Below are positions 8,276-62,570 of a stretch of DNA of 64,000 nt, piece by piece (the stretch's first letter is position 1; the number at the start of each line of letters is the position of its first letter). Position numbers and translations under genes: made by a program. The stretch comes from Candidatus Undinarchaeota archaeon (GTDB taxonomy: Archaea; Undinarchaeota; CAZWFW01), in the NCBI GenBank assembly GCA_964633445.1, contig CAZWFW010000001.1, positions 6,339 through 70,338 of the forward strand, read 5' to 3'. The notes below the pieces were generated by a model. That model saw only the letters and a program-made list of their open reading frames with translations. It had not been told where the DNA came from and searched no databases.

Positions 8276-8650
8276 TTCCTTTCACTCATCTTTGTGAATA
8301 AGCATATCTTCGATCGTTCTGTTCTTGATTCTTGAGAAATATTTCTTAGAATTGCTAACCCAAAATATAAAAACTTTTCCAAATTTTCTACTGTGTTGCA
8401 TGATTCATGCAAAACGGTAGCATAAGCCCTTAAAACTCTAAATAAGCATTATAATTGCTTCCTCAGAGCTCACATCAGAAAGAGCTCGCATACCTCAGAT
8501 TGCCAAAAGAAGGAAGAGATAACGGTTTTTTTAAATAATTGTGCAACACAGTACAAATTTTCAATCTGCGAAATAAGGATTATCAGCTAAAGATAGAAAA
8601 GAAACCGATAAAAACTATAATTTTTTAAAAATTTCAACAAAATATATACT

Positions 8651-33089: not shown

Positions 33090-33139
33090 ATAGTTATTTT
33101 AGGTTTTTTGAAAAATTTATCTTCATGTTGTTTGCAAGA

Positions 33140-33370
33140 CCCAATGCGTAAGCGTGGGGATACGCAATGGGAGGCGGGTGGGAAATATTTAAATACTTTG
33201 AAGTTGTATAAACAGTAATCTCGCAACAGCCGTTAAGGCCGGACAGCCCGTGAGGATAACGGGTAGTGGCCTCGTGAACAGGCCTGTGAGGATAAGGGTG
33301 GTAGAAATCCACCAAACTCCTCACGAAGCTCCTTTCGTAAGGGAGGGGCAGTTTACAGCCCTGTTTTTCC
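33140..33370. ncRNA. GC-rich intergenic island 1: candidate structured RNA and/or regulatory repeat module (family not identified)
   Basis: About 230 nt of G+C-rich sequence in an AT-rich genome. Strong hairpins: CCCAATGCGUA..UACGCAAUGGG, GGCC-UCGUGAACA-GGCC, CCCG-UGAGGAUAA-CGGG and GGUGG-UAGAAAU-CCACC. A plus-strand TATA-like AAAAATTTAT lies at 33111-33120 and a T5 run at 33364-33368. The strand is not certain. Confidence 0.35.
33169..33198 (-). promoter_or_regulatory. consensus archaeal TATA box (TTTAAATA) module oriented toward dcd, shared with the hypC upstream region
   Basis: The minus strand reads AAGTATTTAAATATTTCCCACCCGCCTCCC. This is 28/30 identical to 62418-62446 on the plus strand. 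TATA at 33186-33195 lies about 100 nt upstream of the dcd ATG. Confidence 0.4.
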
Positions 33371-34004
33371 AATATTTCTTGAGAAGCTCTCCAGAAGCAT
33401 ATGCACTAAGAAGTGCGAAAAGTGAAAAATTAACTCTTCTTTCAAAGCTGCCAATTAATTTCACTTCTACAAATTCCTTTCTTTCAAAAGCTTTGACAAG
33501 AATTCTACAAACCTTTCTATTGTTTAAATAACCCTCCAAATAAATAAACTCGTTTTTTAAAATTTTTATAGTGTAGGATGTTTTTTTGATTTTACCCATT
33601 AAAAATCTAAATTCGCTATTCTTTATCAAAAGTTTTGCGAATTGTTTTCTTAGTGAAAGCAATATCGGATTTCCACTCCCACCAAATTCCAAAATAACGT
33701 CCTTTAAAGACTTTTTAGTAGTAAGAATTATTTTACCCTCCAGATATACAGGTATCGAAAAAAGTAGATAATAGGAGGTAGAAACAGCATCCAGCCAGAT
33801 CTCGTAATAACAATGTTTACAGAATAGAAAAAGTGAAAATGAAGATAGAAAATATCCAGGGGAATGAGGAATACCATTTTTAATGAAAGGGAATATTAGA
33901 GCATAGATACATGAATGCAACAAAAATAGATATGTTGCTAAAAATAGTTTAAGCAAACCAAAAATTATAAACAGAGAATCGAGAAGATAAATCAAACTTA
34001 CCAA
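33321..34004 (-). CDS. hypothetical protein with N-terminal TM segments
   Basis: 227 aa. The hydrophobic N-terminus is followed by a basic soluble domain. The last about 18 codons run into GC island 1. Confidence 0.4.
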   Translation of the reverse strand: MVSLIYLLDSLFIIFGLLKLFLATYLFLLHSCIYALIFPFIKNGIPHSPGYFLSSFSLFLFCKHCYYEIWLDAVSTSYYLLFSIPVYLEGKIILTTKKSLKDVILEFGGSGNPILLSLRKQFAKLLIKNSEFRFLMGKIKKTSYTIKILKNEFIYLEGYLNNRKVCRILVKAFERKEFVEVKLIGSFERRVNFSLFALLSAYASGELLKKYWKNRAVNCPSLTKGAS

Positions 34005-34151
34005 TAAAAGTGCAAAAGTAGCATAAAGGTATTTTTAAAATAATTTCTCTTAATTCAAAAATTAATAAATAAAATGTTAAATAGTAAAAGCTTAAGTATA
34101 TGCCCAATAGGAAAATCTTGTAAATTTTGCTGAAGTTCATAAATTTCCATA

Positions 34152-45207: not shown

Positions 45208-45299
45208 TCTATTTTTTTGTTTCTTTTACATAATTTTTATCAAAGCTCAAAGGAATTACCATCTATAAGTAATTGTTATCATCTAAAAGTTAAAAATCT

Positions 45300-45480
45300 T
45301 ATTATCTTCATGTTACTTGCAAGATCCCAGTAGCCCACTCTTAACGAGAGTGGTATGCGGGGACTGTGAGCTGGAGGGTGTATGAGCTTAGAGCGTAAAG
45401 CTCTGGGTGAATGTCTAAACTTGCAAGCCATGAAAAGATTAAGGATTGGATTGAAAGTGTGTACGGAAAACAATCAACTC
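45300..45480. ncRNA. GC-rich intergenic island 2: candidate structured RNA (family not identified)
   Basis: About 180 nt GC-rich stretch between two minus-strand genes. Its 5' end CTTCATGTTACTTGCAAGATCCCAGTAG aligns (about 25/30) with the 5' end of island 1, CTTCATGTTGTTTGCAAGACCCAATGCG. Both are preceded by AAAAAT-TTAT-like TATA elements. Hairpin CCACUC-UUAACGA-GAGUGG. Confidence 0.3.
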
Positions 45481-52690: not shown

Positions 52691-55600
52691 CTAAAATAAT
52701 CTAAGTGCCCTGCACCTTGAGAAATAGGCGAGTGCCAGAATAACAGCTAAAATAATTGCATAAGTGTTTATACCACTTGCAATCTTAATCGTTACGGGAA
52801 TCCAAGGAGTCACTTGAACGTCCTCCACTATATCAACACTTATTGATTTTTCAGGATAATCACATATATCGCCATAAGGGCCTTTTTCACAAACTTTAAT
52901 TCCAATAGTGTCAGTACCAGCCTGTGCACCCAATAGAGTAATAGTAACTTTAATTTCGCTAAAACCTTTTACATTCTGTATGCAGAACTCAGAAATACCA
53001 CACTTAAAGATGCCTGATCCTGTATCAGGATCAGCTCCTGAAACATCCTCTATTTTAACATTACCTTTGTTTATGTCTATGGTTATCGTAATATTTCTTT
53101 CCTCCTTTAATCTTTTACCTATTTTTAGCAGAATTTCTCTATCTTGACCCAAAGGGATTTCTACTTTAGTCTGGGAAATAGCAGCAGATATGCAAGCGCC
53201 ACATCCACTATTTATTCCGCAATCTACATCCTCCTCATTGCAAATGTTATCATCCTTAATATTATTCTCGCAATGATTATCGTACCAAGTTCCATTTAAG
53301 CAAACCCCTCCTTCATATATATGGCACCAGTTATCTGTTGGCTTGTCGCAGCATTTGTTAAAGTTAATATCCGTGTTATATGGAGAGTCATCATCCCAGT
53401 GATGTCCAAAGGCTTCGCAGATTGCCGAGTCCAGCTCTTTCTCATATTCGCTTCCCCAATATATCTTTCCAGCTGACGAATTATATCTCGATCCAGTTAG
53501 GTTAACGCATGCATATTTGGTGCCATTATATACAGTAACAATTTCATTCAAATCTTTTTCTTTAACAAAATTACTCTCATCAGAGCTCACGTCAAAGTAA
53601 CACTTGTATACATAAGATTGAGTACCTTCGTCAGAATCTGAACCATAACCAGATGTTATCGTATCGTTACCTGGGCAGAGGTAGCAGTTGTAGCAAAGAG
53701 ATGGCGTATCTGTTGCATTTACTCTCCAAATCTCGTTTAGTTTACATGATTTGTAAACAGTTATGGAATGCTTACTTTCCTCCTCACCAAAAGTACCATC
53801 CGTGCTTAATATGCTTAACCTTGTTTTAAGTTCAGATTGATTAACAATACCATCACCATTTTCGTCTGCTGTAAATGGTAGGTCTTCAACTTCACCAACA
53901 CCACAGTGAGCTACCTCATAAAACCCTCCTCTACTTCTTTTTATGCATTTATCGAAATTATAAAGGCATTCTGCTAAAGTTAGTGGTTCCAGATCTTGAA
54001 AGCTTGCATATGCCCACGCTTGACTGCAGTTATAAGAAATTTGCTCGGTTATGTTAAGTGATACTGTGAGGTCATCCAACCATGATAAAGCAAGATCCAA
54101 CTTTATGTCTGCAATCTGGTTAATCTTAATAGTTAGATCTCCAACAAGATCGTTTTCCCAGCCTATTGTGAGATTTAATGTGATGTTGGCCAAATCCTTA
54201 TTTACAGGAGAAACTTCTATAGAGTTAACACTCTCGGATGCTACACTTGGCACATATCCCTCGCAAAGGGAATATTTTTTCTCAATTTCATCTTTTAACT
54301 TGCTTTTAATTTGGGAATCAGTTACAACGCCTTTATTTTTAATATCATTGTAAACAGTGTTGTAGTTTGTGTAGTCCTCAGCATAATTCTCAAATTCAGT
54401 GGAATTCATACCGAATATTTCAGTAGTATTTATATCTGAAAGATTCATCATTATATTAAAGGTTTCAGTTGGTAGTGGTGAAGGAAGACTTGCAGAAACG
54501 CTTTCTATACCTCCATCTACGCCGCATTTACTCTTTATTAATGCTTCAAAAGATTTCCAATTTGAATTTATATCATTAGCTAGCTCAGTAGCATTGCAAT
54601 AACCCCAGTCAGTTGCTATGAACCCACAAATTTTTGTTACTTCGTAATACGTGTCTGGTGTAACAGCTATGTTAGCTGGTGGTTTTTCAACATAGAATAT
54701 TGGGTTATACGAGGGGCAAACACTTGGACTTATATAACCAAGGGAGGTTAGTTTGTTAATCAGTTTTTGCTTTAGAACAGTTTTATCTATATAACCAGAA
54801 GAATTTAGTTCATCAAAAGTCTCATTATAATTTACAGGATTTTCGGCATAAGTCTTGAACTCGGAGGCACTTAAGCCAAATAGTTTTGTTACGTTAACAT
54901 CATCTAAAGTTAATAGAACATTAAAAGATGTATATCCTGCAGGAACATTTGCTTGGACATCCTTAATATTTTCCTCCTTAACACCACACTCGGTAGCAAT
55001 GGCACTTTTAAAACTCTGCCAATTACCATTTATATCATTAGCTAAACTATAAGCATCACAATAACCACTCCAACTGCTACTTGTTGCTATAGAAACGCAT
55101 GAGGAGTATTGAGTTACAGTTAATTCACATTCTGTAATATTTGGAGGCACTTCATGCTGTCCTAGGACAAATGATTCGGAAAAATAAATATCTCCAACTC
55201 TTTTTGGACCCTCTGTCTCGGTAGGAACATAAATACCTTTGGCTGTAAGATTTACCCAACCAGGAATTCCCCCACTTCTACCAATCTCAACAGTCTTGTT
55301 AATAGCTTCTATGAGCGCTCTTCTCCATGCCCAACTTTTATACCCTTTACCTATCAATTTTAGCGTATAATTTTTCCTAAAAACTTGCTGTTCAGGAATT
55401 GTAAAATTTTCCAGAATTCCGGTATTACCTGCAGTAAGATTTAAGCTTTGATGAGCAACAAATATACCATATTCAGTGCTTAAAACATTACTGCCATCTA
55501 AAAGGCTTGCATTAACTCCTAACATTGGAATTCTGTCTACACAAGCTTCTATAAATGCTGAGAAAGTGACAGTGACATTCTCACCGGAACGCCATATATT

Positions 55601-58800: not shown

Positions 58801-61278
58801 ATGCTAAAGATGATAAGTGCAAACGCCATTCCCAAAATATTTAAGGGAAAACTTGGTGTTGTTATAGTTGTGGTATTTTTAGTAATTTTAGTTGGTCTCT
58901 TAATTCACCATACAACTGTCTCGAATGTCTCTAACGCATCCTCAACTGAGGAGGTAGGTCAGGAAACGCCGTCTCCTGAATCATCTCCCGAAATAACTAA
59001 AGAAATTGAGGAGGAAATTAAGAAAGAGGAAGAACTTGAGGAGTCTGACAAAAGCCCTCCAGAGATTTTTGTGAAGTTATCTAAGGAAAAGGTTAAAAAA
59101 GGAGATACTGTTGACATTGAGGTTACAGCAAGAGACGAGTCTGGAGTTGCTAGTGTTGTTGCGGAGGTTGAAACTGAGGGAACCTTCAATTTACAACTTG
59201 CTGAGGGTAGTGAATATAGTGGTATATGGAGGGCCTCATTTGTCATTGTTTCCGATTTGGAGAAGGATAAGAAGTATAAGATAGTTATTAAAGCATTTGA
59301 TAGAAGAGGAAATTTGGCCGTAAAAACTTTGGAATACTACGATCCAGTTACCAAAATTGTGATACCTAGAGCTGATGATGATATGAACTATCAAACCCAG
59401 GACTCAGATTGTTCATCGAATCCTGAATATAAATATTATACTTGCAGCAATTGCGATGAAAATGATATTCCTGGTTGGTATATGCTTAGCTATGATGATT
59501 CCTCATGGCCAACGGGCTACGCACCTTTTGGTCAACCTGCTTGGGGAGAATGCACTCAAGCCTTAACTTCAGCTCCAGATGATTTGTTTGTAAGGAAGTG
59601 GTTCTTTATTCCTGGCACTCCTCAAGGCGCTACATTAAGATTGAGTTATGATGATGGGATTAAATGCTACATTAATGAGAATGTTGTAATTAATGTTATA
59701 AGCGAAGCTCATGGCCCTTCATATTGGAATAGGCAAGTTACTATATCTAGCTCTGTTTTGAAGTCTGGCCAAAATCTTTTAACTTGTTGGGTTGCTAATG
59801 GTGGTGAGAATAGTGGCAGTGGAGGAGGCTGGCTTGATTTAGAGCTAGAAGTTACTTATGAACCTATATATATAACGAATGTTACAGTTGAAACAGATAA
59901 ACAAGCCTACGATCCTGGTGATGACGTCAACATAACTGTTACAGTCTTCTCGGACTCCACAAGACTAAGCAACGTTCCCGTTACCATAAAGATCTATGAT
60001 CCAGACGAAAAAATTGTTTTAGATAAACAAGCGGTAACTGATAACAACGGTGAAGTGAAACTCACATATACTTTACCTGTCGATGCGAAGTGGGGTGTTT
60101 ACGTAATTAATGCTACTGCTGAAATGGAAAATACATTCAGCACAATTAAAAAATTTGGTGTTGGTCCAGCTGTTGATATATTTGACATAAAAACAACTCC
60201 TCAAAAGGTTAAGGCACCTGCTAATGTTACAATAACTGCAGACATTTCAAATATAGGTAGCATGAACCTTAGCAATTTGGTTGTTGAAACAAAGATTATT
60301 GGAGGGTCATGGTTTGATGCTTCGTGGAATTACAGAGTACCTATAACAATAACCGAGCAAAGTGGGAATGTTTTGACAGACTATCAAGTTCTGGTTACTT
60401 TAGATACCGCTTCTTTGATTTCAGCAGGGAAAATGCGAAGTGATTGCGGAGATATAAGGTTTGCTGACTCAAATGGAAATACATTAAGCTATTGGATAGA
60501 GTCTGGTTGTGGTTCAGCTAATACAAAAATCTGGATAAAAGTTCCAGAGATTATGGCTAATAAGAATACAACAATTTATGTTTACTATGGGAATCCTAAC
60601 GCAGAAAGTATGAGTAATGGAAATGATGTATTTTTAGACTATGAAGAAACACTTTACTGTCAAGGTTCAACTGCTTCAGGGGGATGTTATGTAACGTTCT
60701 CTCTTTCTAATGAAAAATTTGCTCCTTATCAATCTTCAGGCTATGGTGTATTAGATTGGAAAATGGCTGGAGACTTTAATTCCGGAGGAAGTTATTCATC
60801 CTCGGGCTGTAGCTGTGTCTCAGAAAGCTATGAAAGAGCAAGATTATGTGCAGATTCAACTACTTGTTCAGATACTCATCCAAATTGTCTTGGATGCTAC
60901 TCAACTGGATATCAAGATTGTACGCTGCGCTCTCCTTCTGGCTTCCCAAAGGATGTTAGCAGCTATATAATAGATAAAACTTCTGTGTCTTTTGCAACAG
61001 ACACTACGAATGAAGTAAACTATAATCCTGGCTGTGGTTATTATTACAAATTTGAGTTTCATTTGAAAGCTAAAACTCGCAAGTATGTCTCTCCAGAACC
61101 AACAACAAGTGTAGGTGATGAGGAAACTTTAAGCTCTGTAATACTGGCATCACTTTCAAAAACAATCTCAAGCTTAGCAGTAGGCCAAACAATAAATGAT
61201 TTCCAATTAGGTAAAGTAGATGTTGACTGCTGGGATGTAGGGAATTATAACATAGTCATAACCGTTAAGCAAGGATGA
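58801..61278 (+). CDS. secreted/membrane-anchored protein containing a DUF2341 domain and Cys-rich C-terminal region
   Basis: N-terminal TM LGVVIVVVFLVILVGLLI and an acidic/Ser-rich linker. SWNYRVPITITEQSGNVLTDYQVLVTLDTASL...CGDIRFADSNGNTLSYWIESG...KIWIKVPEIMANKNTTIYVYYGNPNA matches the DUF2341 consensus. Confidence 0.6.
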   Translation: MLKMISANAIPKIFKGKLGVVIVVVFLVILVGLLIHHTTVSNVSNASSTEEVGQETPSPESSPEITKEIEEEIKKEEELEESDKSPPEIFVKLSKEKVKKGDTVDIEVTARDESGVASVVAEVETEGTFNLQLAEGSEYSGIWRASFVIVSDLEKDKKYKIVIKAFDRRGNLAVKTLEYYDPVTKIVIPRADDDMNYQTQDSDCSSNPEYKYYTCSNCDENDIPGWYMLSYDDSSWPTGYAPFGQPAWGECTQALTSAPDDLFVRKWFFIPGTPQGATLRLSYDDGIKCYINENVVINVISEAHGPSYWNRQVTISSSVLKSGQNLLTCWVANGGENSGSGGGWLDLELEVTYEPIYITNVTVETDKQAYDPGDDVNITVTVFSDSTRLSNVPVTIKIYDPDEKIVLDKQAVTDNNGEVKLTYTLPVDAKWGVYVINATAEMENTFSTIKKFGVGPAVDIFDIKTTPQKVKAPANVTITADISNIGSMNLSNLVVETKIIGGSWFDASWNYRVPITITEQSGNVLTDYQVLVTLDTASLISAGKMRSDCGDIRFADSNGNTLSYWIESGCGSANTKIWIKVPEIMANKNTTIYVYYGNPNAESMSNGNDVFLDYEETLYCQGSTASGGCYVTFSLSNEKFAPYQSSGYGVLDWKMAGDFNSGGSYSSSGCSCVSESYERARLCADSTTCSDTHPNCLGCYSTGYQDCTLRSPSGFPKDVSSYIIDKTSVSFATDTTNEVNYNPGCGYYYKFEFHLKAKTRKYVSPEPTTSVGDEETLSSVILASLSKTISSLAVGQTINDFQLGKVDVDCWDVGNYNIVITVKQG

Positions 61279-62309
61279 AGAATTTAAAGCTAATTATTAT
61301 AGCTTTACTATTTTTACTCTTTGCTGAAAATTCTTTTTCACAAACAATTTATGGAAAGGCTAAGTCAGAATTATGCATAATTTATTCTTGTATTCCTGAG
61401 AACTTCACTTATGCTCAAGCTCTGCAGGAAATGAGAATAATCTATTCATGTATACCTAAAAATTTCACTTATACAGAAACTTCTGGAAAATTTAGGGTAA
61501 TCTATTCATGTATACCTAAAAATTTCACTTATACACAAATTTCTGGAAAAATGAGGGTAATTTATTCTTGCATACCACCTAATTTTATTTATCAAAGTTA
61601 CGAATTCGAAGGTTTTGAAATAAATGAAACCTGCCCACCCCAGCCAGCTGATCTGAAAATTCTAGACTATGATATTATTCCATTGTCAAGCCCCTTGGAG
61701 TCATTACAGAAATTCAGGCTCGAGGTTCTTGTCACATCAAACACAACGTGCTATGCAACTCTACTATTTAAGGATTACTCCACGTCTTTTTATATTCGTG
61801 CAAATGAAACAAAGGAGCTAGCAATTTATTTCGATGAAAATGTAAGTACAGAAAGCTTAACAAGGAAAATAGAAATAAGCTATCCACTTGAAGTTAATGA
61901 AAGCGATAATAAAAAAACAATAGTTCTTTACGTTCAGAACCCACCTAACGTTTTGAAAGCAAACGAAACATATGATTTTTCAGCCTCTGAGGGTAAGATA
62001 ATCGCAAGTGTTGATCTGAAATCTAGTGATGTTTGGACATGGATTGAGATTGAAGAAAACGATGATGCGAGGGGAATGAGTATAAAAAAGATTGTTAGGC
62101 AGGATGGAAAAGTTATTGAGAGATGGTTTAGAATAGGAAACAAGGTATACATTTTTGACGATCCATCAACCTACATCGTATACTATGTGAAACCATATCT
62201 GCCTGTAGTTGCCTATGAAACTAGCTTATTCATAGCAGTTCTAATTTCACTGGCAATAGGGATAATTGTTAGTTTGAGAACGGTTAGACGAAGTAAGATA
62301 GGAAGTTAA
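61275..62309 (+). CDS. secreted protein with four tandem 20-aa repeats and C-terminal TM anchor
   Basis: Signal peptide MKNLKLIIIALLFLLFAENSFS. Repeats (I/V)IYSCIP.NFTY....(M/F)R encoded by exact 60-bp tandem units. C-terminal hydrophobic helix LFIAVLISLAIGIIVSL. 4-nt overlap with the upstream gene. Confidence 0.55.
   Translation: MKNLKLIIIALLFLLFAENSFSQTIYGKAKSELCIIYSCIPENFTYAQALQEMRIIYSCIPKNFTYTETSGKFRVIYSCIPKNFTYTQISGKMRVIYSCIPPNFIYQSYEFEGFEINETCPPQPADLKILDYDIIPLSSPLESLQKFRLEVLVTSNTTCYATLLFKDYSTSFYIRANETKELAIYFDENVSTESLTRKIEISYPLEVNESDNKKTIVLYVQNPPNVLKANETYDFSASEGKIIASVDLKSSDVWTWIEIEENDDARGMSIKKIVRQDGKVIERWFRIGNKVYIFDDPSTYIVYYVKPYLPVVAYETSLFIAVLISLAIGIIVSLRTVRRSKIGS
61376..61600 (+). repeat. 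tandem direct repeat, period 60 bp, about 3.7 copies (coding)
   Basis: The units starting at 61381, 61441, 61501 and 61561 are in exact 60-nt register. Copies 2 and 3 are more than 90% identical (ATCTATTCATGTATACCTAAAAATTTCACTTATACA...). Confidence 0.8.
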
Positions 62310-62319
62310 GTATTAAGGT

Positions 62320-62417
62320 CTGTGAACTACCCACCGTTTTTAATGGGTGGCTTCCCCCAGATAAACACCACCACGGCTGGGGTCGGGCTGTTCACGAGCC
62401 CCGATGCCACCCATCAA
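62320..62417. other. GC-rich intergenic island 3: structured element upstream of the hypC promoter
   Basis: Nested helices: GGGUGGC...GCCACCC (62345-51 / 62406-12) enclose CCCCAG..CUGGGG and GGGCU-GUUCACG-AGCCC. The GUUCACGA hairpin loop is the same as the one in island 1 (33268-33284, opposite strand). Confidence 0.3.
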
Positions 62418-62446
62418 AGGTATTTAAATATTTCCCACCTCCTCCC
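62418..62446 (+). promoter_or_regulatory. consensus archaeal TATA box (TATTTAAATA) module oriented toward hypC
   Basis: AGGTATTTAAATATTTCCCACCTCCTCCC is nearly identical to the minus-strand module at 33169-33198. TATA at 62421-62430 lies about 140 nt upstream of the hypC ATG. Confidence 0.4.
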
Positions 62447-62570
62447 TAATTCACCCACCGATTGAAATCAGGGGTACTCTTAGCGACATTTTTATGGAAA
62501 TATTTATACTCTGCAAGACATTATTTTAACCTCTCAAATTTAGAAATACAGGGAAGTCAATGAAAAATTT

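What the first reader, a model, noticed from the sequence alone, without database searches (positions are those of the whole stretch)
62320..62460. Third GC-rich island: same TATA+TTTCCCACC.CCTCCC module as island 1 in the opposite orientation, and the same GUUCACGA hairpin
62418-62446 (AGGTATTTAAATATTTCCCACCTCCTCCC) is 28/30 identical to the reverse complement of 33169-33198. In both loci the TATA box points toward the next gene on that strand: hypC here, dcd there. Upstream of it both loci carry a GGGC/GGCC stem closing a UGUUCACGA loop, at 62385-62402 here and 33268-33284 (other strand) there. Island 3 additionally forms a nested structure: a 7-bp outer helix GGGUGGC/GCCACCC encloses two hairpins. 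This is a composite repeated module (structured element + strong promoter + conserved initial transcribed sequence) placed in front of two unrelated genes. The pattern suggests either a mobile promoter-bearing repeat or a shared regulatory unit such as a protein- or RNA-binding leader.
Basis: seen in the sequence. Interest (0 to 1): 0.65.

Follow-up and report, generated by a model that had tools for sequence, protein, structure and literature searches.

The report
Gene-less TnpB transposon remnants with guide-RNA scaffold
The repeated "TATA plus GC-rich hairpin" module is the left end, promoter and guide-RNA (omega RNA) tail of a small archaeal IS200/IS605-type transposon that has lost its tnpB gene, so it is an ordinary kind of mobile-element relic and not a shared regulator of hypC and dcd.

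Summary
TATTTAAATATTTCCCACC occurs exactly twice, in opposite orientation, and so does the GGSC-UGUUCACGA-GSCC hairpin.

In Ca. Alkanophaga and in metagenome contigs, the same module sits 20-25 nt upstream of full-length tnpB genes (IS200/IS605 family, RNA-guided nuclease). There it is the transposon's left end plus a promoter with leaderless-mRNA geometry.

The GC-rich parts of islands 3 and 1 are the last ~95 and ~140 nt of two different tnpB genes plus the right end. That region encodes the omega-RNA scaffold. Both islands are therefore internally deleted, tnpB-less (PATE-like) elements, with the promoter pointing into the GC island and away from hypC and dcd.

Read on the sense strand, the "GUUCACGA" loop is GUGAAC. 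It pairs with the element's last six bases (GUUCAC), and this pairing covaries across 19 elements. It matches the pseudoknot next to the guide in the solved ISDra2 omega RNA.

A close relative has neither element upstream of hypC or dcd.

Identity is near certain. Whether these copies still make a guide RNA for a TnpB supplied in trans, or are fossils, is open. This is a new member of a known kind and of modest interest.

The parts
62494..62499 (-). Flank next to the left end of the island 3 element: TTCCAT, a candidate TAM (transposon-adjacent motif)
   Evidence: Independent copies carry TTCTAT, TTAC or TTAT at the same place, just before (A)AAATGTCGC. The boundary is uncertain by a few nt because no clean empty site was found.
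62478..62493 (-). Left-end (LE) terminus AAAAATGTCGCTAAGA
   Evidence: TGTCGCTAAGA is conserved in 10 elements from at least 4 organisms.
62453..62475 (-). LE subterminal hairpin (ACCCCUGAU-UUCA-AUCGGUGGGU)
   Evidence: A hairpin is kept at this position with compensatory changes: CCACCGAT/ATCGGTGG, CCACCGTT/AACGGTGG, CCACCGAA/TTCGGTGG, and other stems in other subfamilies. Its stem resembles that of the right-end hairpin, as expected for TnpA-recognised ends.
62431..62449 (-). G-rich block TTAGGGAGGAGGTGGGAAA, directly upstream of the TATA box
   Evidence: GGGGAGGnGGGTGGG is conserved in both LE types and in elements whose TnpB proteins are only 24% identical. Its function is unknown.
62421..62430 (-). 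Palindromic TATA box TATTTAAATA. It is the promoter of the element and is read towards lower coordinates.
   Evidence: The same box lies 20 nt (L007) and 25 nt (L003) before the tnpB ATG. Homologues have TTTATATA or TTTTTATA in that orientation.
62322..62415 (-). Remnant of the 3' end of tnpB plus the right end, i.e. the omega-RNA scaffold. The deletion junction is at about 62416-62420.
   Evidence: 88-93% identical to the last ~95 nt of the full-length elements L007, L054 and L058. It translates to WVASGLVNSPTPAVV, against WVAAGRVNRPTPAVV in L007.
62385..62402 (-). On the sense strand its loop is CGUGAAC, and GUGAAC lies at 62390-62395.
   Evidence: The stem covaries (GC/CG and UA/GC). The loop is complementary to the last 6 nt of the element.
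62354..62384 (-). Stem B (GACCCCAG ... CUGGGGG) with a variable insert
   Evidence: It covaries across the subfamily, e.g. CUGAGG/CCUCAG in L061.
62329..62351 (-). Right-end (RE) subterminal hairpin C
   Evidence: There are compensatory changes in 6 of its pairs across 8 elements.
62322..62327 (-). Last six bases of the element (GUUCAC). This is the 3' strand of the pseudoknot and the RE boundary.
   Evidence: The flanks of independent copies diverge right after CAC. The pseudoknot covaries as A-U, C-G and G-C.
62301..62321 (-). Predicted guide segment (the flank read through from the scaffold). It is antisense to the stop codon and last codons of gene 61275-62309.
   Evidence: Inference from the TnpB/omega-RNA paradigm (PMC10097598, PMC10055086). 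Not tested.
33106..33111 (+). Flank next to the LE of the island 1 element: TTTATC (candidate TAM)
   Evidence: TTTATC or TTTATAAAA precedes the LE in 5 copies of this LE type, plus island 2.
33112..33185 (+). LE of the island 1 element. It comprises the terminus TTCATGTTGTTTGCAAGACCC, a hairpin at 33140-33171, and the G-rich block at 33169-33185.
   Evidence: It aligns with the LE of the full-length tnpB element L003 and of the mini elements L040, L033 and L038.
33186..33195 (+). TATA box TATTTAAATA, read towards higher coordinates and so away from dcd
   Evidence: Same evidence as for island 3. In L003 the tnpB ATG follows 25 nt later.
33218..33356 (+). Omega-RNA scaffold, i.e. a remnant of the tnpB 3' end plus the RE. 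It contains hairpin A at 33268-33284, stem B at 33285-33325, hairpin C at 33328-33349 and the terminal GUUUAC at 33351-33356.
   Evidence: tblastn to the C-terminus of L003 TnpB gives 63% identity over 38 aa, E 4e-7. blastn gives 84-90% identity. The fold has z -4.2. The start at about 33218 is a prediction, 23 nt after the TATA box.
33357..33368 (+). Flank that would serve as guide. It is cut short by a T5 run at 33364-33368.
   Evidence: Read from the sequence. Treating an oligo-T run as an archaeal terminator rests on general knowledge.
45295..45440 (+). Island 2, a degenerate third copy. The LE terminus ATCTTCATGTTACTTGCAAGATCCC is fused to a scaffold-like body. It has no TATA module and no RE.
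   Evidence: It is 91% identical over 23 nt to the island 1 LE. Its body resembles the mini elements L033 and L040.

Best explanation
Islands 3 and 1 are two internally deleted, protein-less derivatives of two different tnpB-only IS200/IS605-family insertion sequences (IS1341-like). They are PATE-like mini-elements. Island 3 spans 62322 to about 62493 and is read on the minus strand. Island 1 spans about 33112 to 33356 and is read on the plus strand. Island 2 is a further-decayed copy.

The shared module is the transposon's left end. It consists of a terminus, a subterminal hairpin, a conserved G-rich block and an archaeal TATA box. In intact copies that TATA box starts a leaderless tnpB mRNA.

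The GC-rich part is what remains of the 3' end of tnpB plus the right end. That stretch encodes the omega-RNA scaffold. It has hairpin A, stem B and the right-end hairpin, plus a pseudoknot between the hairpin A loop (GUGAAC) and the last six bases of the element (GUUCAC), directly before the guide.

Shown: the homology, the architecture, the orientation, the conserved and covarying structure, and the spread of a comparable 230-bp mini-element as a unit.

Inferred: the promoter, now fused to the scaffold, transcribes a stand-alone omega RNA whose guide is the flanking DNA. A TnpB made by a full-length copy elsewhere could use it in trans to cut the empty donor site and so keep the mini-element in place. 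I put the chance that either window copy does this today at about 0.4. Island 3 is the more plausible of the two, because island 1's guide is truncated by a T5 run.
For: 1. The 19-mer GGTGGGAAATATTTAAATA recovers loci in Ca. Alkanophaga and in metagenomes. In L003/L027, L007 and L044 it is followed after 20-33 nt by a TnpB ORF. Pfam gives Cas12f1-like_TNB (E 3e-18 and 2e-22) and OrfB_IS605 (E 3e-21). Sources annotate the protein as an RNA-guided endonuclease TnpB. The RuvC and zinc-finger motifs align with solved TnpB and Cas12f structures.
2. Island 3 at 62322-62415 is 88-93% identical to the last ~95 nt of the full-length elements L007, L054 and L058. Island 1 matches the C-terminus of L003 TnpB with E 4e-7.
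3. Flanks of independent copies diverge immediately after ...GTTCAC, which marks the right-end boundary.
4. Pseudoknot: 17 of 19 elements keep all six loop-tail positions paired (15 with six Watson-Crick pairs, 2 with one G-U). One pair varies as A-U (8), C-G (4) and G-C (3). 97.1% of cells are paired, against 22-52% when the partner is slid, and 0 of 500 shuffles reach the observed value. The geometry is the same as in the ISDra2 omega-RNA structure, where positions -6..-2 pair with -102..-106 (PMC10097598).
5. For the nested helices, 13 of 27 pairs show double compensatory changes.
6. A 45%-identical homologue (L061) has an adjacent Y1 TnpA gene.
7. A 230-bp tnpB-less element of the same design is 93% identical at two loci with unrelated flanks (L049 and L051).
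8. Short-read contigs of the window's organism break inside both islands.
9. A close relative lacks both insertions.
10. PATEs derived from IS605/IS1341 elements are documented in archaea (PMC3119063). PATEs 'often encode omega RNAs' that need TnpB in trans (PMC10055086).
Against: - No full-length tnpB lies in the 64-kb window. I could not show that one with a matching scaffold exists in this genome.
- In island 3 only 5 nt separate the TATA box from the retained 3' part. The predicted start site (about 62398-62402) therefore falls at the very foot of hairpin A, and everything 5' of it in the normal scaffold is missing.
- Island 1's would-be guide runs into TTTTT after 7-12 nt.
- Some sister copies (L045, L033) have lost pseudoknot complementarity, and island 2 is clearly decayed. 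Many of these elements are therefore fossils.
- No expression data were available.
- No clean empty site was found, so the left boundary and the TAM are approximate.
- The covarying hairpins could serve as DNA hairpins for TnpA rather than, or as well as, RNA helices.
Confidence: 0.88

Rival explanations
1. The elements have the same origin (deleted tnpB elements) but are inert fossils. They are not transcribed into a usable guide RNA and not mobilised, and they persist only because deleting them brings no benefit.
For: - Island 2 has lost its promoter and right end.
- Island 3 keeps only about 95 nt of scaffold, and the predicted start site falls at the edge of hairpin A.
- Island 1's guide is cut by T5.
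- L045 and L033 have broken pseudoknots.
- There is no tnpB in the window.
- Repeat-mediated core deletions of IS605-type elements are common in archaea (PMC3119063).
Against: - Both window copies retain complete ends, an intact TATA box and pseudoknot complementarity (one G-U in island 1).
- A comparable mini-element has spread as a unit.
- In several mini-elements the promoter sits about 23 nt before the first scaffold helix, which looks selected rather than random.
Confidence: 0.45
2. One reading: the module is a promoter plus conserved leader that drives or regulates hypC and dcd. The TATA box fires outward, and the structured GC-rich part acts upstream as a protein- or RNA-binding element.
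For: - TATTTAAATA is a perfect palindrome, so TBP could bind in either orientation.
- Both elements sit in the 5' intergenic region of a gene: about 75 nt from hypC's ATG and about 22 nt from dcd's ATG.
Against: - In all full-length relatives the box drives tnpB in the opposite direction.
- An AAA-NN-TTTAAATA (BRE-like) context is present only on the tnpB side. This rests on the sequence plus my recollection of the archaeal box A consensus.
- An outward transcript would meet TTTTT at the element boundary in both loci, at 62489-62493 and 33105-33109.
- hypC and dcd in a close relative lack the module. Their proximal upstream sequence, which is homologous for hypC, contains its own A/T-rich box.
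- The same module occurs at unrelated loci in other archaea.
Confidence: 0.06
3. The GC-rich islands are independent host non-coding RNA genes of a thermophile (a tRNA-like, C/D or H/ACA guide, or a novel sRNA) that merely share a strong promoter.
For: - GC-rich islands in an AT-rich (35% GC) thermophile genome typically mark structural RNAs, and the three tRNAs of the window look like that.
- The outer helix is 7 bp and one hairpin has a loop reminiscent of a T-loop.
Against: - There is no Rfam hit even at E<=10, and ARAGORN finds nothing there.
- The islands align base-for-base with the coding 3' ends of tnpB genes.
- The two islands are not homologous to each other outside the transposon-end motifs.
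Confidence: 0.02

Closest known systems
PATEs (palindrome-associated transposable elements) derived from IS605/IS1341-type transposons, described in Haloquadratum walsbyi and Natronomonas (PMC3119063) and seen as PATE-like elements in Geobacillus stearothermophilus (PMC10055086)
   Same: [quoted passage not shown]
- They have no terminal inverted repeats and have near-terminal hairpins at both ends.
- Their ends are homologous to those of full-length tnpB elements.
- They arise by internal (core) deletion that leaves C-terminal coding remnants.
- They can spread as units.
- They often retain the omega-RNA region.
   Different: - The host is an uncultured AT-rich thermophilic archaeon. Its nearest named relatives are Hadarchaeota/MSBL1, at about 50% identity for a RecJ-like protein.
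- These copies keep the element's own TATA promoter fused within 5-25 nt of the scaffold.
- They share a 30-nt G-block/TATA cassette across TnpB families that are only 24% identical.
TnpB omega RNA (reRNA) of IS200/IS605 elements, e.g. ISDra2 (cryo-EM structure, PMC10097598)
   Same: - It is encoded over the 3' end of tnpB up to the right end.
- The scaffold has several stems.
- A pseudoknot forms between the nucleotides just 5' of the guide and an upstream segment.
- The guide is the DNA flanking the right end.
   Different: - There is no detectable sequence similarity.
- The pseudoknot partner lies in a hairpin loop about 70 nt upstream (about 75-85 nt in other subfamilies) rather than about 100 nt upstream.
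- The retained scaffold is about 80-95 nt in island 3, against 116 nt in ISDra2.
- Binding and cleavage are untested.
sotRNAs: sense-overlapping transcripts at the 3' end of IS1341-type tnpB genes in Halobacterium salinarum (PMC4615843)
   Same: - They are archaeal non-coding RNAs from the 3' end of tnpB.
- The nearest relatives of L007 TnpB outside the Alkanophaga group are haloarchaeal TnpBs at about 42% identity.
   Different: sotRNAs are made from within intact genes. Here the gene body is gone and the gene's own 5' promoter abuts the RNA region.
IS608 (Helicobacter pylori), the mechanistic model for IS200/IS605 ends
   Same: - It has subterminal hairpins at both ends.
- It inserts 3' of a short motif. 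That motif is TTAC in IS608, and TTAC, TTAT or TTCTAT here.
- The right end finishes with a TCA-type tetranucleotide: TCAA in IS608 and TCAC here.

The IS608 details are recalled from memory.
   Different: No tnpA lies next to any of the close copies. A Y1 transposase was seen only beside a 45%-identical homologue.

Membership tests
IS200/IS605-family element (tnpB-only, IS1341-like) or its deletion derivative (PATE) | The ends are homologous to those of full-length elements that encode TnpB. | tested here: met
   The LE and RE of island 3 match L007, L054, L058 and L060. Those of island 1 match L003. The TnpB domains were confirmed.
IS200/IS605-family element (tnpB-only, IS1341-like) or its deletion derivative (PATE) | There are subterminal hairpins at both ends, no terminal inverted repeats and no target-site duplication. 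| tested here: met
   The LE hairpin is at 62453-62475 and the RE hairpin at 62329-62351. They have similar stems (..CGGUGGGU) and show compensatory changes in relatives. The flanks TTCCAT and AGACCT are not duplicated.
IS200/IS605-family element (tnpB-only, IS1341-like) or its deletion derivative (PATE) | A Y1 (HUH) TnpA transposase is associated with the family. | tested here: inconclusive
   A Y1_Tnp gene lies divergently next to the 45%-identical homologue L061. None lies beside the close copies or was detected in the window.
IS200/IS605-family element (tnpB-only, IS1341-like) or its deletion derivative (PATE) | Mobility: the same element occurs at different loci, and empty sites exist in relatives. 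| tested here: inconclusive
   A sister mini-element is 93% identical at two loci with unrelated flanks. A close relative lacks both window insertions, but its neighbouring genes differ, so there is no scarless empty site. Contig breaks inside both islands suggest multiple copies.
TnpB omega RNA | It is encoded across the 3' end of tnpB and ends at the transposon's right end. | tested here: met
   The scaffold-like conserved structure spans the last ~100-150 nt of tnpB up to ...GUUCAC in L007, L054, L058, L060-L063 and L003.
TnpB omega RNA | A pseudoknot involves the nucleotides immediately 5' of the guide. | tested here: met
   A 6-bp loop-tail pairing is kept in 17 of 19 elements, with A-U, C-G and G-C covariation. 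0 of 500 shuffles reach the observed value.
TnpB omega RNA | It is expressed, bound by TnpB, and guides TAM-dependent DNA cleavage. | not testable with these tools
   This needs RNA-seq and biochemistry.
Archaeal BRE/TATA promoter driving a leaderless mRNA | A TATA box lies about 23-27 nt upstream of the start site, which coincides with the ATG. | tested here: met
   This was tested for the full-length copies only. L007 has 20 nt between the box and the ATG, and L003 has 25 nt. Start sites in the window copies are predictions.
Rfam families (including transposon-associated motifs, tRNA, C/D and H/ACA guides) | The sequence scores against a curated covariance model. | tested here: not met
   There is no match at the gathering threshold in the window other than 3 tRNAs. 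Nothing relevant appears at E<=10 in either island.
   It is absent upstream of hypC and dcd in GCA_054010715.1. In tnpB-bearing copies the orientation is the opposite one.

The most novel reading that the evidence does not exclude
These are self-promoted 'guide-RNA-only' mini-transposons. Selection has repeatedly fused the element's own strong promoter to a minimal omega-RNA scaffold of about 80-140 nt. They then parasitise the TnpB nucleases of full-length elements in trans to secure their own retention. The 30-nt G-rich/TATA cassette, identical across TnpB families that are only 24% identical and across hosts of 35-54% GC, would be a functional, horizontally exchanged module (for example a control site for the transposon or a DNA structure used in single-strand transposition) rather than just a promoter.
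Probability: 0.25. Interest if true: 0.5.

Novelty: new member of a known kind. Interest (0 to 1): 0.3.

Why it matters
- It removes a false lead. hypC and dcd do not share a regulatory RNA or leader.
- It annotates three unexplained GC-rich islands in this window as transposon relics.
- For people who work on TnpB, it gives a set of thermophile-derived omega-RNA scaffolds with a covariation-supported pseudoknot and natural minimal versions (about 80-95 nt). It also gives examples where a defined archaeal promoter is fused directly to the scaffold. Both are useful for defining minimal guide RNAs and for asking whether guide-only elements exploit TnpB in trans.
- It shows near-identical transposon ends shared between distantly related archaea from hot sediments (Ca. 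Alkanophaga and a Hadarchaeota-like lineage). This points to horizontal spread.

Tried and rejected
- Rfam at the gathering threshold over the whole window, and at E<=10 over both islands, gave nothing relevant.
- ARAGORN found no tRNA-like gene at the islands, despite the 7-bp outer helix and a loop resembling a T-loop.
- I inspected the sequence by eye for C/D-box or H/ACA guide architecture. There are no proper boxes and no ACA after the stem, so I dropped this.
- Most hits of the 19-mer in genome contigs (Pelagibacteraceae, Winogradskyella, Paenibacillus and others), many of the metagenome hits, and both viral-contig hits are chance matches in AT-rich DNA, in coding regions, or in one ordinary host-gene promoter of a Methanomethylicota lineage.
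- A further GGTAGCTCAC at 53906 lies in a coding region and is chance.
- The bacterial promoter/terminator scan is not applicable to an archaeon and gave nothing useful.
- The search for a clean empty site failed. The only close relative found has different neighbouring genes at both loci.
- I could not identify the organism by name, because the exact-match clusters carry no names.

Full report
**1. Observation**

The window is AT-rich (35% GC) and has a few short GC-rich islands, three of which are tRNAs.

- The 19-mer TATTTAAATATTTCCCACC occurs exactly at 62421-62439 (+) and 33177-33195 (-). It occurs nowhere else even with 3 mismatches, and 0.09 matches are expected by chance.
- The hairpin GGSC-UGUUCACGA-GSCC is at 62385-62401 and 33268-33284, as stated.
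- The nested fold of island 3 is reproduced.

**2. What the module is**

Rfam gives nothing for either island, even at E<=10.

I scanned one genome per species for the invariant core GGTGGGAAATATTTAAATA. This returned four real loci in the two Ca. Alkanophaga species, plus chance hits. A metagenome scan added about a dozen more real loci.

I oriented all copies so that the core reads GGTGGGAAATATTTAAATAC.

- In three loci (L003=L027, L007, L044) an ORF starts 20-33 nt after the TATA box.
- Two of these ORFs were checked and are TnpB. Pfam gives Cas12f1-like_TNB (E 3e-18 and 2e-22) and OrfB_IS605 (E 3e-21). Sources annotate the protein as 'RNA-guided endonuclease InsQ/TnpB'. The GIDVN / LENL / ADR and CxxC motifs align with solved TnpB and Cas12f chains.
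- A gap of 20-25 nt between the box and the ATG is the geometry of an archaeal leaderless mRNA.
- Close homologues that lack the exact 19-mer carry asymmetric boxes (TTTATATA and TTTTTATA) in the same orientation.

Upstream of the TATA box, all copies share a G-rich block (GGGGAGGnGGGTGGG), then a hairpin whose sequence varies while its pairing is kept, then one of two end sequences: (A)TGTCGCTAAGA or GTTGCTTGCAAGA. Beyond that the flanks are unrelated, apart from a short TTAC, TTAT, TTCTAT or TTTAT motif.

This is the left end of an IS200/IS605-type element, with its promoter and, outside it, a TAM-like motif.

**3. What the GC-rich parts are**

- Island 3, read on the minus strand from 62415 to 62322, is 88-93% identical to the last ~95 nt of the full-length elements L007, L054 and L058. 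It still translates to WVASGLVNSPTPAVV, against WVAAGRVNRPTPAVV at the L007 C-terminus.
- Island 1 (33238-33348, plus strand) matches the C-terminus of the other TnpB, L003, at 63% over 38 aa with E 4e-7.
- The two TnpBs are only 24% identical. This is why the islands do not resemble each other outside the end motifs.
- In every copy, similarity to relatives stops right after ...G(U/G/C)UCAC, which is the right end.

Hence island 3 (62322 to about 62493) and island 1 (about 33112 to 33356) are complete-ended elements from which almost the whole tnpB gene has been deleted. In island 3 the junction lies 5 nt after the TATA box.

Island 2 (about 45295-45440) has the island 1-type left terminus fused to a scaffold-like body. 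It has neither the TATA module nor a right end.

**4. Structure and the 'GUUCACGA hairpin'**

The 3' end of tnpB up to the right end is where TnpB's omega RNA is encoded (PMC10097598, PMC10055086).

Eight elements of the L007 subfamily, 43-100% identical at the protein level, share three helices: hairpin A, stem B with a variable insert, and the right-end hairpin C. 13 of 27 predicted pairs show double compensatory changes.

- Across 19 elements from at least five scaffold types, 17 keep all six positions paired (15 with six Watson-Crick pairs; L060 and island 1 have one G-U).
- The one variable pair changes in step: GUGAAC:GUUCAC, GUGACC:GGUCAC and GUGAGC:GCUCAC. The counts are A-U 8, C-G 4 and G-C 3.
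- 97.1% of cells are paired, against 22-52% when the partner is slid by one to three positions within the alignment. 0 of 500 shuffles reach the observed value.

In the ISDra2 structure the nucleotides -6 to -2, next to the guide, form a pseudoknot with -102 to -106. The element here has the same design.

In relatives, however, its 3' strand competes with the right-end hairpin. In island 3 its 5' strand lies upstream of the predicted start site.

**5. Family context**

- A 45%-identical homologue has a divergent Y1 transposase (TnpA) gene next to it. This ties the group to IS200/IS605.
- A 230-bp tnpB-less element of the same plan (left end, promoter, about 23 nt, scaffold, right end) is 93% identical at two Alkanophaga-like loci whose flanks are unrelated. 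Such mini-elements therefore propagate as units.
- Short-read contigs of the window's own organism end inside both islands, as expected for repeats.
- The organism is an uncultured archaeon. The best named matches of its RecJ-like protein are Hadarchaeota/MSBL1, at about 50% identity. Alkanophaga belongs to a different class, so near-identical transposon ends are shared across distant, co-habiting thermophiles. Horizontal spread is an inference.

**6.

- In GCA_054010715.1 (RecJ-like 93% and ArsA 88% amino-acid identity), dcd is preceded by 139 nt of AT-rich DNA with no island.
- In the same genome, hypC is preceded by only 33 nt. That stretch is homologous to window 62539-62570, the part proximal to hypC and outside the element.
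- Both genes therefore work without the module.
- A transcript fired outward from the palindromic TATA box would also meet TTTTT at the element boundary in both loci.
- The neighbouring genes differ in the relative, so these are not scarless empty sites.

**7. Mechanism**

Shown: the identity and orientation of all parts, the conserved and covarying structure, and the spread of sister mini-elements.

Inferred:
- Transcription starts about 23 nt after the TATA box, at about 62398-62402 on the minus strand and about 33218 on the plus strand.
- It yields a stand-alone omega RNA whose guide is the flanking DNA. For island 3 the guide is 62321 downward, antisense to the end of gene 61275-62309. For island 1 it is 33357 onward, cut by T5 at 33364-33368.
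- A TnpB from a full-length copy could load this RNA and cut the empty donor joint, favouring retention of the mini-element. This is the role proposed for PATE-borne omega RNAs (PMC10055086).

Against current activity: there is no tnpB in the window, island 3's scaffold is truncated, island 1's guide is short, and decay is visible in island 2, L045 and L033.

**8. Comparison and novelty**

This is a PATE-like derivative of IS605/IS1341 elements. That class is already described in haloarchaea, including copies that retain C-terminal coding remnants (PMC3119063). It carries a TnpB omega-RNA scaffold of the known architecture (PMC10097598).

Three things are new, and only at the level of detail: the host lineage, the direct promoter-scaffold fusion, and the 30-nt G-block/TATA cassette shared by very different TnpB families. 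The function of that cassette remains unexplained.

Verdict: a real feature, correctly spotted and partly misread, and a new member of a known kind.

Noticed in passing
window 8389-8553; L021 1867-2030 (corresponds to window 34049-34057): This is a 165-bp MITE with terminal inverted repeats ACTGTGTTGCA...TGCAACACAGT. A 94.5% identical copy is inserted in another strain's contig at a site that is empty in the window, flanked by a duplicated GAATTAAG. It is therefore a recently active, strain-specific element unrelated to the tnpB relics.
   Followed up: partly
window 45295-45440 (island 2): The island 1-type left terminus is fused to a scaffold-like body similar to the mini-elements L033 and L040. 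It lacks the G-block/TATA module and the right end. It is bracketed by CTTGCAAG repeats and by near-complementary ends (ATCTTCATG...CATGAAAAGAT), which suggests repeat-mediated decay.
   Followed up: partly
LE of all elements, e.g. window 62431-62449 and 33169-33185: The block GGGGAGGnGGGTGGG(AAA) next to the TATA box is the most conserved part of the elements. It is shared by two left-end types and by TnpB families only 24% identical, in hosts of 35-54% GC. It has four G-runs on the transposon's sense strand. No explanation was tested. Possibilities include promoter strength, a G-quadruplex in the single-stranded transposition intermediate, or a binding site.
   Followed up: no
flanks at window 62494-62515 and 33100-33111: The TAM-like motifs (TTCCAT/TTCTAT, TTAC, TTTATC, TTTATAAAA) are A/T-rich and resemble archaeal TATA boxes. 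Both window insertions sit next to the likely promoter of the neighbouring gene. The target preference may steer these elements into promoter regions.
   Followed up: no
window 62453-62475 vs L031; L005/L045 vs L049: The left-end hairpin is polymorphic between strains at the same locus. The window has ACCCCTG where L031 has ACCCTG. L005 has GCCCTAAGGGA where L049 has GCCCCTTTAGTGAGGGGA.
   Followed up: no
window 33321-34004 (-): This 227-aa ORF runs into the right end of the island 1 element, so its last ~12 codons (…AVNCPSLTKGAS) are element-encoded. A gene caller on a strain contig called a 113-aa product here instead. The insertion may have altered the 3' end of a host gene.
   Followed up: no
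window 61377-61576, within gene 61275-62309: There are internal ~60-nt tandem repeats encoding (R)IIYSCIPKNFTY units in a protein with no Pfam match.
   Followed up: no
L009, L034, L048 (Methanomethylicota contigs): The same 19-mer, preceded by GGGAAGAA, lies about 50 nt upstream of an ordinary host gene. So GGTGGGAAATATTTAAATA can also occur as a normal archaeal promoter unrelated to tnpB.
   Followed up: no
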